64,000 nucleotides of DNA, taken from the sequence record OP172784. The stretch is one strand, 5' to 3'. This document shows positions 60,421 to 63,030 of the stretch, one piece after another. Below the pieces are notes generated by a model. That model was given only the letters and a program-made list of their open reading frames with translations, was not told where the DNA came from and did no database searches. The stretch comes from Escherichia phage ECO07P1. Every line of letters begins with the position of its first letter. Position 1 is the stretch's first letter. Position numbers and translations under genes: made by a program.

Positions 60421-60708
60421 ATGATTCTTTATGCGAAAGTATCGTCCGTTGAAAATGGATATAAATATGATCAAGATGCGGCTAAAGCCTTGATTGATGA
60501 TTATGGCATTTTAACATGTTTTGAAGTTGAAAAGGTTTACATTGACCGTTCATCTTCTCAAGTTAAATTAGTAAAGGAAGACCGTAAATTTAATACAGTA
60601 AATTTTGATTTCTTTATTGAAACAGAAAAAGGTCCTCTTGAATATGATATTTTCAAGAATCCTTTGGGTCTTGAATGCATCGTAAACATGTATTATCATA
60701 AATGGTAA
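60421..60708 (+). CDS. hypothetical protein (95 aa)
   Basis: ORF start overlaps previous stop (TAATAATG). Confidence 0.45.
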   Translation: MILYAKVSSVENGYKYDQDAAKALIDDYGILTCFEVEKVYIDRSSSQVKLVKEDRKFNTVNFDFFIETEKGPLEYDIFKNPLGLECIVNMYYHKW

Positions 60709-60805: not shown

Positions 60806-60878
60806 TGGGAATTAGCCAAGTTGGTAAGGCACTGGATTTTGATTCCAGGATGCAAAGGTTCGAGTCCTTTATTCCCAG
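60806..60878 (+). tRNA. tRNA-Gln (anticodon UUG)
   Basis: Hand-folded cloverleaf: acceptor TGGGAAT/ATTCCCA, anticodon stem CTGGA/TCCAG with loop TTTTGAT, T-arm AAAGG-TTCGAGT-CCTTT. Confidence 0.8.
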
Positions 60879-60879
60879 C

Positions 60880-60966
60880 GCGAGAATGGTCAAATTGGTA
60901 AAGGCACAGCACTTAAAATGCTGCGGAATGATTTCCTTGTGGGTTCGAGTCCCACTTCTCGCACCA
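60880..60966 (+). tRNA. tRNA-Leu (anticodon UAA), class II with long variable arm
   Basis: Acceptor GCGAGAA/TTCTCGC, anticodon loop CTTAAAA, long variable arm, T-loop TTCGAGT, 3' CCA encoded. Confidence 0.8.
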
Positions 60967-60971
60967 AATTT

Positions 60972-61045
<74 letters not shown>

Positions 61046-61055
61046 ATTTAATTTA

Positions 61056-61130
61056 CTCCGTGTAGCTCAGTTTGGTAGAGCGTCTGCTTTGGGAGCAGAA
61101 TGTCGCAGGTTCAAATCCTGCCGCGGAGAC
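61056..61130 (+). tRNA. tRNA-Pro (anticodon UGG)
   Basis: Acceptor CTCCGTG/CGCGGAG, anticodon stem TCTGC/GCAGA with loop TTTGGGA, T-loop TTCAAAT. Confidence 0.8.
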
Positions 61131-61131
61131 T

Positions 61132-61221
61132 GGAGGCGTGGCAGAGTGGTTTAATGCACCGGTCTTGAAAACCGGCAGTCGCTCCGGCGACTCATAGGTT
61201 CAAATCCTATCGCCTCCGCCA
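61132..61221 (+). tRNA. tRNA-Ser (anticodon UGA), class II
   Basis: Acceptor GGAGGCG/CGCCTCC, anticodon stem CCGGT/ACCGG with loop CTTGAAA, long variable arm, CCA encoded. Confidence 0.8.
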
Positions 61222-61226
61222 GTTTT

Positions 61227-61302
61227 GCTGATTTAGCTTAGTAGGTAGAGCAACTCACTTGTAATGAGAAGGTCGGCGGTTCGATTCCGTCAATCAGCAC
61301 CA
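61227..61302 (+). tRNA. tRNA-Thr (anticodon UGU)
   Basis: Acceptor GCTGATT/AATCAGC, anticodon loop CTTGTAA, T-loop TTCGATT, CCA encoded. Confidence 0.8.
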
Positions 61303-61303
61303 A

Positions 61304-61378
61304 GGCCCTGTAGCTGGAAGGTTCAAGCAAGCGACTCATAATCGCCAGATGGTGGTTCAATTCCACCCAGGGCCACCA
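61304..61378 (+). tRNA. tRNA with CAU anticodon (Ile via lysidine modification, or Met)
   Basis: Acceptor GGCCCTG/CAGGGCC, anticodon loop CTCATAA, T-loop TTCAATT, CCA encoded; the T4 equivalent is recalled as annotated Ile. Confidence 0.75.
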
Positions 61379-61391
61379 AATTAAGAATTAA

Positions 61392-61478
61392 GGGGAGTTA
61401 TCCCGTAGAGGTAGCGGTGTGGACTGTAAATCCATTGTCATTGCGACTCGGGTGGTTCGACTCCATCACTCCCCACCA
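61392..61478 (+). tRNA. tRNA-Tyr (anticodon GUA), class II
   Basis: Acceptor GGGGAGT/ACTCCCC, anticodon stem GTGGA/TCCAT with loop CTGTAAA, 15-nt variable arm as expected for bacterial-type tRNA-Tyr, T-loop TTCGACT, CCA encoded. Confidence 0.7.
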
Positions 61479-61482
61479 ATTT

Positions 61483-61557
61483 GGATGTGTAGCTCAATGG
61501 CAGAGCGATCGCCTGTTAAGCGATTGGTTATAGGTTCGAATCCTATCACGTCCGCCA
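61483..61557 (+). tRNA. tRNA-Asn (anticodon GUU)
   Basis: Acceptor GGATGTG/CACGTCC (one G-U), anticodon stem ATCGC/GCGAT with loop CTGTTAA, T-loop TTCGAAT, CCA encoded. Confidence 0.7.
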
Positions 61558-61561
61558 AATC

Positions 61562-61637
61562 CGAGGCATAGCTCAGAAGGAAGAGCAAGGACCTTCTAAG
61601 TCCTAGGTCGTAGGTTCGATCCCTACTGCCTCGACCA
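61562..61637 (+). tRNA. tRNA-Arg (anticodon UCU)
   Basis: Acceptor CGAGGCA/TGCCTCG, anticodon stem AGGAC/GTCCT with loop CTTCTAA, T-loop TTCGATC, CCA encoded. Confidence 0.8.
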
Positions 61638-61653
61638 ATTAAGTGAGGAAAAT

Positions 61654-62004
61654 ATGAAAGGTAATGTTTATTTAGTAGTTCATGATTTAACATTCTATTT
61701 TAATCATAATGACACTGTTATTTCTGAACGCGTAATTAATTTGCTTTATCAGCACGCAGATTATGTTTATGTCGAAAACGAATACGGTCATTGGCAATTT
61801 CTCAAAAATCGTTCATTTGGTTTAGATGGTTACGAATACTTTGAACGTAAAGACCTTTTAGATAAAATTCCATTATCTACACAATATCAAAATCACAAGT
61901 CTTTACATAAATGCCGTCCAATTCGAAATGTTGAATCTGCGTATGAAGCAATTGATTTGTGGCGTAAACGCCGTGAACAGATTGATGCTTTAAAAGAATA
62001 TTAA
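61654..62004 (+). CDS. hypothetical protein (116 aa)
   Basis: ORF with RBS GAGGAAAATATG directly after tRNA-Arg. Confidence 0.45.
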   Translation: MKGNVYLVVHDLTFYFNHNDTVISERVINLLYQHADYVYVENEYGHWQFLKNRSFGLDGYEYFERKDLLDKIPLSTQYQNHKSLHKCRPIRNVESAYEAIDLWRKRREQIDALKEY

Positions 62005-62345
62005 GAAACCGGGTCGCTACCGGTAAGTCGTCGGACTGATGTTCCCTGGGTAAGGACTGGCATTAACAAATCTTTACGATTTGTTAATGTCCCCTTACAT
62101 CACAGCAGAAACGGCGCACCGAATTATCGATTCGAGGAAATATCTTTGCCGTAAGCCGAGTAGCGTTTTTGACGGAACGTTCGGATATGGTCGAGATATG
62201 GCCTTTTAAAAATATTAAGTAGCGTCAACTGCTTAATAACCGGGTTCGAATCCCGGCGTTTCGTACAAACACTTGCCTTAGCAGGTGGAACCCCGACAAG
62301 GTTGCCGCAAGGCTTAGCCCCGACCGAAAGGTTGGGGCTTTTTAG
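62005..62345 (+). ncRNA. putative structured stable RNA(s) / tRNA-like element, ending in an intrinsic terminator
   Basis: No ORF of 60 aa or more; perfect 11-bp hairpin ATTAACAAATC-TTTAC-GATTTGTTAAT (about 62057-62083); tRNA-like T-arm CCGGG-TTCGAAT-CCCGG with possible acceptor pairing CGGAACG/CGTTTCG; terminator AGCCCCGACC-GAAA-GGTTGGGGCT-TTTTT at 62316-62345. Confidence 0.3.
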
Positions 62346-62433
62346 TTTGAATCACTCGGATAACGCTGTTACGGATAATAACAAAGTAATAAATAATTAA
62401 TAACCAACCGATAGATTATTTCAAGGATTTTAA

Positions 62434-62997
62434 ATGAAAACTTATGCCGAATTTTTAACCGAAGCAGCAAAATTACCATCTGAAGCAGAACTTACTAAAG
62501 TATTCTTCCAATTGGACCCAAAAGACCGTGGCGATTTTCTTAAGTGGAAAGCTAAAGCTATTGAAATGTATAACATTGATAATAGTTCTTTTACGATGAG
62601 TCAAGAAAATAAATTCAATAAAGCATTTTTCAAAATTTCTAAGAAACTGGCATCTGGCGCTCAGGTTCCTAAATCTGCCTTAGCTACTCCTGAACGTGCG
62701 CCTGTTAAAATTTCTAAGAATATGTTCGACACTAAAAAATACGTTAATGCTTTGAATAAAGCTCTTGATGCATTGGATGATGCAAAGAAGGCAGCCCGTG
62801 ATCTTCAAGACGTGTACATCGATTTTGATCGTAAAACTAAAGGTTCTATTTCAAATAGCGAACGCAATAGTGTAAGCGTTTATTCTGATAGCCTTGACGT
62901 TCTTGGCGATGCGTATACTGAAATTAAAAATCGTATTAACACCGCATCTAAACTAAAAGCTGCCGCAGAAGCTATAATAGCTAAACTAGATAAATAA
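62434..62997 (+). CDS. internal-protein-like protein with capsid targeting sequence (IPIII-sized)
   Basis: 187 aa starting MKTYAEFLTE|AAK.., very close to the recalled T4 IP capsid-targeting sequence; followed by terminator 63005-63030. Confidence 0.6.
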   Translation: MKTYAEFLTEAAKLPSEAELTKVFFQLDPKDRGDFLKWKAKAIEMYNIDNSSFTMSQENKFNKAFFKISKKLASGAQVPKSALATPERAPVKISKNMFDTKKYVNALNKALDALDDAKKAARDLQDVYIDFDRKTKGSISNSERNSVSVYSDSLDVLGDAYTEIKNRINTASKLKAAAEAIIAKLDK

Positions 62998-63004
62998 TTT
63001 TAAA

Positions 63005-63030
63005 TCCCTATCTAAATGATAGGGCTTTTT
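63005..63030 (+). terminator. intrinsic terminator after IP-like gene
   Basis: CCCTATC-TAAAT-GATAGGG followed by CTTTTT. Confidence 0.6.

What the first reader, a model, noticed from the sequence alone, without database searches (positions are those of the whole stretch)
62005..62345. ORF-free 340-bp region with dense RNA secondary structure after the tRNA cluster
There is no ORF of 60 aa or more. The region contains a perfect 11-bp hairpin (ATTAACAAATC / GATTTGTTAAT, about 62057-62083), a canonical T-arm (CCGGG-TTCGAAT-CCCGG) with a plausible 7-bp acceptor pairing (CGGAACG / CGTTTCG) but a non-canonical 6-nt loop where the anticodon would be, and a strong intrinsic terminator at 62316-62345. 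T4 encodes two stable RNAs of unknown function in its tRNA region, so this may be a homolog, a degenerate tRNA, or a tRNA-like regulatory RNA.
Basis: partly seen in the sequence, partly recalled or inferred. Interest (0 to 1): 0.55.

Follow-up and report, generated by a model that had tools for sequence, protein, structure and literature searches.

The report
T4 stable RNAs rnaD and rnaC
The ORF-free stretch holds this T4-like phage's copies of two long-known small stable RNAs of unknown function, species 2 (rnaD) and species 1 (rnaC), so the feature itself is ordinary, although comparing relatives gives a new structural model for both.

Summary
62005-62345 has no ORF of 60 aa or more, folds far better than shuffled sequence, and ends in a strong terminator.

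The region is not one element. It aligns end to end with T4. rnaD (species 2 RNA) is at 62001-62120, rnaC (species 1 RNA) at 62127-62265, and the operon trailer and terminator run to about 62345.

New here:
- **rnaC fold:** it is a tRNA-shaped four-way junction.
- **rnaC arms:** it has a canonical T arm, a roughly 70-nt arm in place of the D arm, and a 9-bp anticodon-like arm.
- **Complementary loops:** the two apical hexaloops (UUGACG and CGUCAA) are exact complements. They are identical in all but two of the lineages sampled, and change together in Marfavirus.
- **rnaD fold:** it is a 5' hairpin plus a rod with a hypervariable tip.
- **Distribution:** both families occur in tRNA clusters of many Tevenvirinae genera and are absent from Rfam.
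- **Published SNP:** a host-adaptation SNP in phage BW-1 restores a base pair in rnaD.

Function remains unknown. My best guess is that both are tRNA-machinery-processed, protein-binding RNAs with host-specific roles.

The parts
61654..62004 (+). 116-aa ORF between tRNA-Arg (61562-61637) and rnaD. It is context only and not part of the RNAs. Its stop codon (62002-62004) overlaps the first bases of the rnaD homologue.
   Evidence: ORF. (PHROG 3355, unknown function, E 2e-54). In T4, rnaD starts one base after tRNA-Arg instead.
62001..62120 (+). rnaD (T4 species 2 RNA) homologue.
   Evidence: Maps onto T4 rnaD 71053-71171. Blast identity to T4 is 88.7%. Covariance model R2 scores 149 bits. Structure is supported.
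62008..62024 (+). rnaD 5' hairpin P0: ACCGG, loop GUCGCUA, CCGGU.
   Evidence: Compensatory A-U/G-C/U-A and C-G/U-A changes across homologues.
62027..62033 (+). rnaD closing helix P1, 5' strand GUCGUCG. It pairs with 62112-62119 (CGGCGCAC, one bulged C).
   Evidence: A G-C to C-G swap at the innermost pair in four divergent members.
62040..62043 (+). rnaD helix P2, 5' strand UGUU. It pairs with AGCA at 62104-62107. The flanking G38A39/G114A115 may form a tandem G.A.
   Evidence: U-A to A-U covariation at the outer pair. G-C to A-U and U.G to A-U at inner pairs in divergent members. The Karamvirus type has a regular UUUAAU/AUUAAA helix at this place.
It is hypervariable in sequence among relatives but always a hairpin.
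   Evidence: At least four unrelated versions. The base helix covaries at all five pairs. The BW-1 adaptive SNP lies in the equivalent arm.
62112..62119 (+). rnaD helix P1, 3' strand.
62127..62265 (+). rnaC (T4 species 1 RNA) homologue, a tRNA-shaped RNA.
   Evidence: Maps onto T4 rnaC 70908-71046 with 3 differences in 139 nt. Kha5h annotates the same bases as rnaC. Model R1 scores 167 bits.
62128..62134 (+). rnaC acceptor stem, 5' strand CGAUUCG. It pairs with 62257-62263 (CGUUUCG) and has two conserved U.U mismatches.
   Evidence: The third pair is A-U or G-C. In Pectobacterium phage PM2 the first pair is A-U and both U.U become U-A.
62135..62204 (+). rnaC long arm in the place of a D arm. 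Its base is AGG 62135-62137 with CCU 62202-62204. It has several helical segments.
   Evidence: 12 of its 15 pairs show compensatory changes in A5. In PM2 the base is UGG/CCA.
62169..62174 (+). Apical hexaloop UUGACG of the long arm, the exact complement of 62223-62228.
   Evidence: Invariant in 31 of 36 distinct homologues. It is UUGGCG in the four Marfavirus sequences, whose partner loop is CGCCAA. In PM2 it is GAGACG, which keeps the GACG core.
62213..62238 (+). rnaC anticodon-like arm: a 9-10 bp stem with a 6-nt loop.
   Evidence: 8 of 9 pairs show compensatory changes.
62223..62228 (+). Hexaloop CGUCAA, the proposed kissing partner of 62169-62174.
62240..62256 (+). rnaC T arm: CCGGG, UUCGAAU, CCCGG. 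It abuts the acceptor 3' strand as in tRNA.
   Evidence: The middle pair is G-C, U-A, A-U or U-G across homologues.
62257..62265 (+). rnaC acceptor 3' strand CGUUUCG, then U (discriminator position), then A. The genome continues CAA.
   Evidence: GUACAA is conserved in most genera. Marfavirus has GUCCAA and PM2 has UCCA, which are true encoded CCA ends.
62266..62315 (+). Conserved 3' trailer of the tRNA-operon transcript, with small hairpins.
   Evidence: Nearly identical in T4-type relatives. It follows rnaD directly in phages that lack rnaC.
62316..62345 (+). Intrinsic terminator: 10-bp G+C-rich stem, GAAA loop, U run.
   Evidence: The stem covaries among relatives. Similarity to T4 ends just after it.

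Best explanation
**What it is (identity about 0.97).** The region carries this Tequatrovirus's orthologues of T4 rnaD (species 2 RNA, 62001-62120) and rnaC (species 1 RNA, 62127-62265). They are followed by the trailer and intrinsic terminator that end the tRNA-operon transcript.

**How the RNAs are made (inferred, about 0.8).** Both are excised from the polycistronic tRNA precursor by the host tRNA-processing machinery. This would be RNase P at the tRNA-like 5' end of rnaC, with endonucleases and exonucleases at the other ends.

**rnaC structure (shown by covariation, about 0.9).** rnaC is a tRNA-shaped four-way junction with these parts:
- a 7-bp acceptor stem with two U.U mismatches;
- U at the discriminator position;
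- a canonical T arm;
- a roughly 70-nt arm replacing the D arm;
- a 9-bp anticodon-like arm.

**Loop-loop pairing (inferred, about 0.6).** The hexaloops of the long arm (UUGACG) and of the anticodon-like arm (CGUCAA) pair with each other. This could be within one molecule or between two. Either way the anticodon-like loop is locked and the RNA cannot decode.

**rnaD structure (shown, about 0.85).** rnaD is a 5' hairpin plus a rod. The rod has a conserved internal-loop core and a freely replaceable tip.

**Function (not shown, about 0.35).** My committed guess is that both act as stable protein-binding RNAs. rnaC would be a tRNA mimic that occupies or diverts a host tRNA-binding factor, such as a tRNA-targeting defence enzyme or a modification or processing enzyme. 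They would matter only in some hosts.

The overall confidence value of 0.8 refers to identity, processing context and folds taken together. It does not refer to the functional guess.
For: **Identity.** The region aligns with T4 from rnaD to the terminator. 805 phage records carry it, and some annotate rnaC or rnaD.

**Expression in T4.** A northern blot confirmed RNAC, and RNA-seq classed both RNAC and RNAD as late RNAs (PMC9697503). One transcript covers the tRNAs and both RNAs and terminates after species I (PMC2330249).

**tRNA-like processing context.** In Karam-, Gelderland-, Kagamiyama-, Winkler- and Mosugukvirus, rnaC sits between two tRNA genes with spacers of a few bases. rnaD-like RNAs start 1-6 nt after a tRNA in T4, W70, KaAlpha and L011.

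**rnaC fold.** RNAalifold predicts the junction. On 36 distinct sequences, 94.4% of cells are paired and 24 pairs show compensatory changes. No shuffle of 500 reaches this, and slid controls give 36-48% paired.

**Loop pairing.** Complementarity is 6 of 6 and confined to the loops. The loops are invariant while the adjoining stems vary. There is a double change, A-U to G-C, in four Marfavirus sequences. PM2 keeps the GACG/CGUC core.

**rnaD fold.** On 30 sequences, 93.2% of cells are paired and 15 pairs show compensatory changes.

**Host-specific role.** The only mutation shared by three BW-1 lines adapted to ECOR34 took the paper's virulence index RBG from 0.17 to 0.98. It maps to the rnaD apical hairpin, restores a C-G pair and the base found in relatives, and stabilises the fold by about 5 kcal/mol.
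Against: - No experiment in the searchable literature assigns a function. Reviews and papers from 2010, 2022 and 2025 all say 'unknown'.
- The loop-loop pairing rests on one independent compensatory event. In PM2 the two outer pairs are lost.
- Within one molecule, the roughly 26-bp long arm would have to bend back to reach a 10-bp arm. That geometry is untested.
- Some phages have lost rnaC (Dhakavirus dhabil, VR20, pEC-M719) or carry rnaD alone. Neither RNA is therefore universally required.
- The RNase P, RNase E and RNase III processing steps are recalled from 1970s-80s T4 papers that are not held in the library. I did not verify them.
- The BW-1 SNP could act through transcript stability or a neighbouring gene rather than through rnaD itself.
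Confidence: 0.8

Rival explanations
1. The RNAs have no function in trans. They are structured by-products that serve the tRNA operon in cis. rnaC would provide an RNase P entry site and a 3' structure that protects or times the processing of the tRNA precursor. rnaD and the trailer would shield the transcript end.
For: Both always lie in or at the end of tRNA clusters, on the same strand and within the same transcript. The trailer and terminator stay in place when rnaC is deleted.
Against: Cis roles do not explain invariant, mutually complementary hexaloops, or a conserved internal-loop core, across genera in which the neighbouring tRNAs differ. rnaC occupies different places in the clusters, between Trp and Gly, between Phe and Trp, or at the end. 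The mature RNAs accumulate as stable species in T4.
Confidence: 0.17
2. They are base-pairing riboregulators (sRNAs). Their conserved single-stranded stretches would pair with host or phage mRNAs or tRNAs. For example, UUGACG contains the Asp codon GAC and could pair with the tRNA-Asp anticodon loop.
For: The conserved loops are short and exposed in the secondary structure. A 2022 paper calls them 'small regulatory RNAs'.
Against: No target is known. The two rnaC loops are complementary to each other and change together, which is more simply explained by mutual pairing. No similar sequence occurs in 5,426 E. coli genomes. The 2010 review states that no trans-acting regulatory RNA of T4 has been characterised.
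Confidence: 0.1
3. rnaC is a working adaptor. It would be CCA-tailed and aminoacylated, and used in translation or in a tmRNA-like or other transfer reaction.
For: It has a 7-bp acceptor stem, a discriminator base and a canonical T arm. Marfavirus and PM2 have an encoded CCA.
Against: The anticodon-like loop has 6 nt on a 9-bp stem, there is no D arm, and most genera encode ACA rather than CCA. ARAGORN finds no tRNA or tmRNA here. The Rfam tRNA models do not reach threshold.
Confidence: 0.05
4. The region is a decaying tRNA pseudogene plus chance hairpins, with no selected function.
For: The region is dispensable in some relatives.
Against: About 91% of the 746 records with rnaC are at least 95% identical in it. 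Conservation and compensatory substitutions hold across about ten genera.
Confidence: 0.02
5. The region encodes one or more small proteins, as many GenBank records annotate ('hypothetical protein').
For: Short ORFs exist: 42 aa on + and 34 aa on -. Many records annotate CDSs here.
Against: No ORF of 25 aa or more is shared across the 22 rnaC homologues. Nine have none, and the rest differ in strand, frame and position. The substitutions are of the RNA compensatory type, and the rnaD tip is replaced by unrelated hairpins of different lengths.
Confidence: 0.01

Closest known systems
Bacteriophage T4 rnaC (species 1 RNA, 139 nt; NC_000866 70908-71046)
   Same: Orthologous, with 3 differences in 139 nt. 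It holds the same position after rnaD and before the operon terminator, and has the same predicted fold.
   Different: Nothing material. In T4 the two substitutions in the anticodon-like stem keep the pairs, changing A-U to G.U and U.G to U-A.
Bacteriophage T4 rnaD (species 2 RNA, 119 nt; NC_000866 71053-71171)
   Same: Orthologous. The 5' hairpin, the closing helix and the internal-loop core are identical.
   Different: Identity is about 89%, with the differences concentrated in the apical hairpin. In T4, rnaD starts one base after tRNA-Arg. Here a 116-aa ORF lies between them.
Canonical tRNA
   Same: rnaC has a 7-bp acceptor stem, a base at the discriminator position, and a 5-bp T stem with a UUCGAAU loop abutting the acceptor 3' strand. 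It forms a four-way junction and lies among tRNA genes.
   Different: There is no D arm; a roughly 70-nt arm takes its place. The anticodon-like stem is 9 bp with a 6-nt loop, the acceptor has two U.U mismatches, and ACA stands in place of CCA. tRNA finders do not detect it.
tRNA-like modules of non-coding RNAs (bacterial Y-RNA-like YrlA, the tmRNA tRNA-like domain, viral tRNA-like structures)
   Same: The concept is shared: an acceptor/T-arm mimic that is handled by tRNA enzymes but does not decode. This comparison rests on my own knowledge of those families.
   Different: Rfam gives no match to any of these families at E up to 10 or in relatives. There is no tag ORF, no Ro/Rsr partner encoded nearby, and the architecture differs.
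Loop-loop (kissing) complexes such as HIV-1 TAR-TAR*/DIS and ColE1 RNA I-RNA II, and the T-box specifier-anticodon pairing
   Same: Two hairpin loops are complementary over all six loop bases, with no complementarity beyond the loops. One loop occupies the anticodon position and the other carries the matching 'codon', GAC with GUC, or GGC with GCC in Marfavirus.
   Different: Here both partners lie in one roughly 139-nt RNA. No physical evidence exists. Whether the pairing is within or between molecules is unknown.

Membership tests
T4 rnaC (species 1 RNA) | Sequence homology to T4 rnaC over its full length | tested here: met
   136 of 139 bases identical to T4. 167 bits with model R1.
T4 rnaC (species 1 RNA) | Position in the tRNA operon: downstream of rnaD, upstream of the operon terminator, same strand as the tRNAs | tested here: met
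T4 rnaC (species 1 RNA) | Accumulates as a stable RNA of about 139-140 nt in infected cells | not testable with these tools
   Shown for T4 by northern blot (PMC9697503). Not tested for this phage.
T4 rnaD (species 2 RNA) | Sequence homology to T4 rnaD with the conserved core (5' hairpin, GUCGUCG...CGGCGCAC helix, UCCCUG/AUCACAG core) | tested here: met
   88.7%; 149 bits.
T4 rnaD (species 2 RNA) | Starts directly after a tRNA 3' end (tRNA-Arg in T4) | tested here: not met
   Here the 116-aa ORF 61654-62004 precedes it. Many Tequatrovirus relatives share this arrangement. This is a context difference and does not argue against orthology.
Canonical tRNA | Detected by tRNA covariance or heuristic models at curated thresholds | tested here: not met
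   ARAGORN makes no call at 62127-62265. The Rfam tRNA model gives no hit here, and the best clan hit is tRNA-Sec at 17.3 bits against a gathering score of 47.
Canonical tRNA | 7-bp acceptor stem continuous with a 5-bp T stem and a 7-nt T loop of the UUCRANY type | tested here: met
   62128-62134 with 62257-63, and 62240-62256. Supported by covariation. Two U.U mismatches lie in the acceptor.
Canonical tRNA | D arm, and a 5-bp anticodon stem with a 7-nt loop | tested here: not met
   A roughly 70-nt arm replaces the D arm. The anticodon-like stem is 9-10 bp with a 6-nt loop.
Canonical tRNA | 3'-terminal NCCA, encoded or added | tested here: inconclusive
   The genome reads U-ACA-A here. UCCA is encoded in Marfavirus and PM2. 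The mature 3' end was not determined.
tmRNA | tRNA-like domain plus a tag-peptide reading frame | tested here: not met
   ARAGORN finds no tmRNA. Rfam gives no hit.
Any curated Rfam family (including YrlA/Y RNA, 6S, SRP, ribozymes) | Covariance-model score at or near the gathering threshold | tested here: not met
   Nothing better than E = 0.4 at 61600-62450. Only tRNAs are found in seven related loci.
Kissing-loop RNA | Watson-Crick complementarity between two hairpin loops, maintained by covariation | tested here: inconclusive
   6 of 6 complementary in 35 of 36 sequences. One pair shows a double change, A-U to G-C, in 4 Marfavirus sequences, which is one event. PM2 keeps only 4 pairs.
Kissing-loop RNA | Physical loop-loop contact | not testable with these tools
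   Needs probing, native gels or a solved structure.

The most novel reading that the evidence does not exclude
rnaC is a self-locked tRNA mimic. A D-arm replacement carries a built-in 'codon' (GAC, or GGC in Marfavirus) that pairs with the RNA's own anticodon-like loop (GUC or GCC). This would present host proteins with a tRNA top half and a pre-formed codon-anticodon helix. Together with rnaD it would act as an RNA-based counter-measure against host factors found only in some strains, for example tRNA-targeting defence nucleases. That would explain 50 years of 'no phenotype' on laboratory strains. It would also explain why a single base-pair-restoring change in rnaD lets phage BW-1 grow on ECOR34.
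Probability: 0.15. Interest if true: 0.75.

Novelty: already known. Interest (0 to 1): 0.3.

Why it matters
The locus itself is textbook T4 biology. [quoted passage not shown]

What could matter is that their function is still listed as unknown in 2010, 2022 and 2025 papers, and neither has an Rfam family. This analysis adds three things.

1. **Covariation-supported folds for both RNAs.** These include a specific prediction that can be tested by mutation: the UUGACG and CGUCAA loops pair.
2. **Wider distribution.** Both families occur across Tevenvirinae tRNA clusters, and rnaD also occurs in a Vequintavirinae phage.
3. **A structural reading of the only published phenotype.** The BW-1 host-adaptation SNP repairs an rnaD stem.

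Together these make an old open question more directly testable. They also flag frequent mis-annotation of these RNAs as tRNA-Met, tRNA-Phe or hypothetical proteins.

Tried and rejected
- **Rfam, gathering and permissive thresholds.** I scanned the window and seven related loci. Only tRNAs came up.
- **ARAGORN.** It makes no call at the locus. In some Karamvirus loci it mis-calls the 3' part of rnaC as a 95-nt tRNA-Met or tRNA-Phe.
Rejected by comparison across homologues.
- **Origin of rnaC from a particular tRNA, such as tRNA-Asp.** Local alignment of the 3' half against 116 phage tRNAs found nothing beyond T-loop similarity.
- **Hammerhead-like reading of CUGAUG...GAAAC in rnaD.** Considered by eye and dropped. 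The helix topology does not fit and Rfam gives no ribozyme hit.
- **Promoter reading of TTGACG (-35-like).** There is no -10 element at the right spacing and no site in the scan.
- **Mimicry of a host RNA.** blastn finds no match in 5,426 E. coli genomes.
- **Bacterial or prophage copies.** The rnaC pattern is absent from 185,579 species genomes.
- **Public-collection scans.** The metagenome and IMG/VR scans with strict patterns returned only 8-14 loci each, mostly near-identical. A looser pattern returned mainly chance matches, which were sorted out with the covariance model.
- **Older literature.** Searches for 'species 1 RNA', 'p2Sp1' and similar terms found none of the 1970s-80s papers in the library. 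Statements about RNase P, E and III processing are therefore marked as memory.
- **Small-ORF reading.** Rejected.
Full report
**1. The observation**

The window is a T4-like (Tequatrovirus) genome segment. It has ten tRNA genes at 60806-61637 on the + strand.

Between 62005 and 62345 the longest ORFs are 42 aa (+) and 34 aa (-).

- The perfect inverted repeat ATTAACAAATC/GATTTGTTAAT lies at 62062-62072 and 62078-62088, about 5 nt to the right of the quoted position. It extends to a 14-bp stem.
- The T-arm-like CCGGG-TTCGAAT-CCCGG is at 62240-62256 and is followed by CGTTTCG at 62257-62263.
- A 10-bp G+C-rich hairpin with a T run is at 62316-62343.

The segments fold better than dinucleotide shuffles. 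z is about -4 for each of the two RNA-sized pieces and -7.6 for the whole, and no shuffle does as well on these three; the trailer (z -3.67) is matched by one shuffle.

**2. What it is**

blastn of the region finds 805 phage records, 679 of them over at least 80% of its length. Nearly all are E. coli, Shigella or Yersinia T4-like phages.

- Phage Kha5h annotates the bases equivalent to 62127-62265 as 'rnaC, small stable RNA, species 1 RNA', and the hairpin at the end as a terminator.
- The T4 reference annotates, in transcription order, tRNA-Arg, rnaD (species 2 RNA, 71053-71171) and rnaC (species 1 RNA, 70908-71046).
- A pairwise alignment maps T4 rnaD onto window 62001-62120 and T4 rnaC onto 62127-62265. 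Similarity continues to the end of the terminator and then stops.
- rnaC differs from T4 at 3 of 139 positions. rnaD is about 89% identical, with the differences in its apical hairpin.

So the finding is not one element. It is two known RNA genes plus the 3' trailer of the tRNA-operon transcript. The T arm belongs to rnaC.

One context difference from T4 stands out. There, rnaD begins one base after tRNA-Arg. Here a 116-aa ORF of unknown function (PHROG 3355) lies between them, and its stop codon overlaps the first bases of rnaD.

**3. What the literature says**

- A 2022 study classed them as late RNAs 'of yet unknown functions' and confirmed RNAC by northern blot (PMC9697503).
- A 2008 paper describes one roughly 1.75-kb primary transcript that is the precursor of the eight tRNAs and of species I and II RNAs, and that terminates after species I (PMC2330249).
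- The 1970s-80s sequencing and processing papers are not in the searchable library. My recollection is that species 1 RNA is matured by RNase P and cut by RNase III in vitro, and that a dimeric precursor of species 2 and 1 exists. That recollection is unverified.
- Rfam 15 has no family for either RNA.

**4. rnaC across phages**

Walking outward with blastn found rnaC homologues in many genera. Covariance model R1 confirmed them. The genera are Tequatrovirus, Gaprivervirus, Kagamiyamavirus, Winklervirus, Karamvirus, Gelderlandvirus, Kanagawavirus, Moonvirus, Mosugukvirus and Marfavirus, plus unclassified Straboviridae.

Outside the T4 type, the gene sits inside the tRNA cluster, between two tRNA genes with spacers of a few bases. 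Examples are Trp-rnaC-Gly in Melville, KaAlpha, Pet-CM3-4 and COW86c, and Phe-rnaC-Trp in EcS1 and LC53. That is the placement of a tRNA gene.

**5. The rnaC fold**

RNAalifold on 22 distinct sequences predicts a four-way junction.

On a model-guided alignment of 36 distinct sequences, 94.4% of cells form standard pairs and 24 pairs show changes on both sides. No shuffle of 500 reaches any measure. Sliding the partners by 1-3 columns drops pairing to 36-48%. The alignment was fitted to the model, so these counts lean towards it. The MAFFT alignment gives 98.7% paired and 22 compensated pairs.

The parts are as follows.

- **Acceptor stem:** 62128-62134 (CGAUUCG) with 62257-62263 (CGUUUCG).
  - The third pair is A-U in the T4 type and G-C elsewhere.
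  - There are two conserved U.U mismatches.
  - In Pectobacterium phage PM2 the first pair is A-U and both U.U become U-A, so that stem is fully paired.
- **Long arm:** about 70 nt (62135-62204), standing where the D arm would be. Its base is AGG/CCU, or UGG/CCA in PM2.
- **Anticodon-like arm:** a 9-10 bp stem (62213-62238) with a 6-nt loop.
- **T arm:** canonical (62240-62256), abutting the acceptor 3' strand.
- **3' end:** U at the discriminator position. The next bases are ACA in most genera, but CCA in Marfavirus (GUCCAA) and PM2 (UCCA).

No ORF is conserved across the homologues.

**6. The two hexaloops**

The apex of the long arm is UUGACG (62169-62174) and the loop of the anticodon-like arm is CGUCAA (62223-62228). 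They are exact reverse complements, and the complementarity stops at the loop edges.

- Both loops are invariant in 31 of 36 distinct sequences, although the stems that carry them vary at almost every pair.
- In the four Marfavirus sequences the loops are UUGGCG and CGCCAA. This is one double change that keeps the pair, A-U to G-C.
- In PM2 the loops are GAGACG and the 5-nt CGUCA. The core GACG/CGUC is kept and the two outer U-A pairs are lost.

For two given hexaloops the chance of full Watson-Crick complementarity is 1 in 4096.

I read this as a loop-loop (kissing) interaction, with probability about 0.6. It could form within one molecule, which would require the long arm to bend back. It could also form between two molecules. 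The single independent covariation event and the PM2 exception are the main weaknesses.

A curiosity follows. The anticodon-position loop carries GUC (GCC in Marfavirus) and the other loop carries the matching codon GAC (GGC).

**7. rnaD across phages**

The T4-type rnaD has an invariant core and a tip with at least four unrelated hairpin versions. Model R2 also finds weaker but significant members in Marfavirus, Moonvirus, Karamvirus, Kanagawavirus and Winklervirus-like contigs. These usually start a few bases after a tRNA.

Other distribution points:

- A close copy lies after a tRNA in the Vequintavirinae phage W70.
- An 89% identical copy lies in Providencia phage PSTCR6 behind a homing-endonuclease gene and tRNA-Arg.
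- Several phages have rnaD joined directly to the trailer, with rnaC missing (dhabil, L159, L160), or rnaD followed by other sequence (VR20, pEC-M719).

The two RNAs are therefore independent modules.

RNAalifold and my own pairing agree on the rnaD fold. It has:

- a 5' hairpin, 62008-62024;
- a closing helix, 62027-62033 with 62112-62119;
- a short helix, UGUU with AGCA, with U-A to A-U covariation;
- a possible tandem G.A, which is a regular U-A helix in the Karamvirus type;
- the variable arm.

On 30 sequences, 93.2% of cells pair and 15 pairs show compensatory changes.

**8. A functional clue**

In phage BW-1, three independent lines evolved on E. coli ECOR34 shared a single SNP at 164264 (T to C). 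The paper's virulence index RBG rose from 0.17 to 0.98. The authors placed the SNP in rnaD but could not interpret it (PMC12685909).

Mapping it gives a clear reading.

- On the RNA strand it is A to G in the apical hairpin: CACAG-UUUUA-CU[A>G]UG.
- It converts a C.A mismatch into C-G.
- It restores the base found in relatives with the same hairpin version.
- It lowers the predicted energy of rnaD from -25.9 to -31.0 kcal/mol.

An intact rnaD tip therefore seems to matter on a natural isolate but not on K-12. This fits a host-specific role. Effects through transcript stability or neighbouring genes are not excluded.

**9. How it most likely works**

*Shown:* identity, gene order, folds, conservation.

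*Inferred from context and from established T4 knowledge:* both RNAs are released from the tRNA precursor by the tRNA-processing machinery. rnaC is handled at its acceptor/T-arm half like a tRNA.

*Inferred from sequence:* the anticodon-like loop is sequestered by the complementary loop, so rnaC cannot decode.

*Guess, about 0.35:* rnaC is a tRNA mimic that binds or diverts a host tRNA-binding protein. rnaD is a protein-binding rod. Both matter only in hosts that carry the relevant factor.

*Rivals:*
- cis-acting processing or stability elements (0.17);
- base-pairing regulators (0.1);
- a chargeable adaptor (0.05);
- a pseudogene (0.02);
- small proteins (0.01).

**10. Verdict**

The element is already known: it is the rnaD-rnaC pair of T4-type phages.

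The interest score is low to moderate for that reason. The folds, the loop-loop prediction, the wider family distribution and the reading of the BW-1 mutation are by-products. They could help to attack a 50-year-old open question.

Noticed in passing
L153 (OR125554.1 163950-164450), locus position 315; equivalent to about window 62081: The convergent host-adaptation SNP of phage BW-1 (PMC12685909) is an A-to-G change on the RNA strand. It restores a C-G pair in the apical hairpin of rnaD, and restores the base present in relatives. The paper did not give this reading.
   Followed up: yes
L004:1546-1640, L013:8491-8585, L031:373-468; GenBank records under hits H331, H419, H430/H431: In Karamvirus genomes, ARAGORN and several GenBank records call the 3' two-thirds of rnaC a 95-nt tRNA-Met or tRNA-Phe. 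In many Tequatrovirus records the rnaD/rnaC stretch carries 'hypothetical protein' CDSs. These look like mis-annotations.
   Followed up: partly
L007:461-565, L006:598-701, L011:787-890 (-), L028:34-136, L139:4559-4663 (-), L025:983-1086: Divergent rnaD-like RNAs (24-50 bits with model R2) lie in the tRNA clusters of Karam-, Kanagawa-, Moon-, Winkler-like and Marfavirus phages. Most start a few bases after a tRNA. Their apical motif GAGUUCCCUCAACGAUAAC is shared with the Vequintavirinae phage W70.
   Followed up: partly
L151:750-1624 (Providencia phage PSTCR6): The order is a homing-endonuclease gene, tRNA-Arg, an rnaD copy 89% identical to the window's, then tRNA-Ile, in an otherwise distant Straboviridae phage. 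This looks like transfer of the segB-tRNA-Arg-rnaD block by homing.
   Followed up: no
L026:1423-1571, L164:223-371, L163:202-348, L061, L123, L139: In Winklervirus-type rnaC the T loop is UGCAUCC, UGCAUUC or UGCAUGC (one base shorter in Virsaitis27, L163) instead of UUCGAAU. In the same sequences the conserved GGCC before the long-arm base is CGCC. This may be a co-change of a D-loop/T-loop-like tertiary contact. I have no explanation for it.
   Followed up: no
L149:699-830, L159:393-540, L160 (-) 1478-1601: Dhakavirus-type phages have a clean deletion of rnaC. rnaD (…GCGCACCGAA) is joined directly to the trailer (CACTTGCC…).
   Followed up: partly
window 61304-61378 and 61392-61478: ARAGORN calls a tRNA-Met (CAT) at the position where T4 annotates tRNA-Ile, so it may be a lysidine-type tRNA-Ile. 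The window also has tRNA-Tyr and tRNA-Asn, which T4 lacks. tRNA-Tyr scores only 30.2 bits in Rfam, just above the threshold of 29.
   Followed up: no
window 60460-60467; relatives just after the terminator (for example L001, L008, L017): A T4 late-promoter consensus, TATAAATA, lies about 340 nt upstream of the first tRNA. In many relatives another TATAAATA follows the rnaC terminator within 5 nt. The window and T4 have unrelated sequence there.
   Followed up: no
window 62434-62997 and 63006-63024: The next gene downstream is a 187-aa ORF (PHROG 2280, unknown function) followed by its own terminator-like hairpin. T4 has a different gene (e.8) at this position.
   Followed up: no
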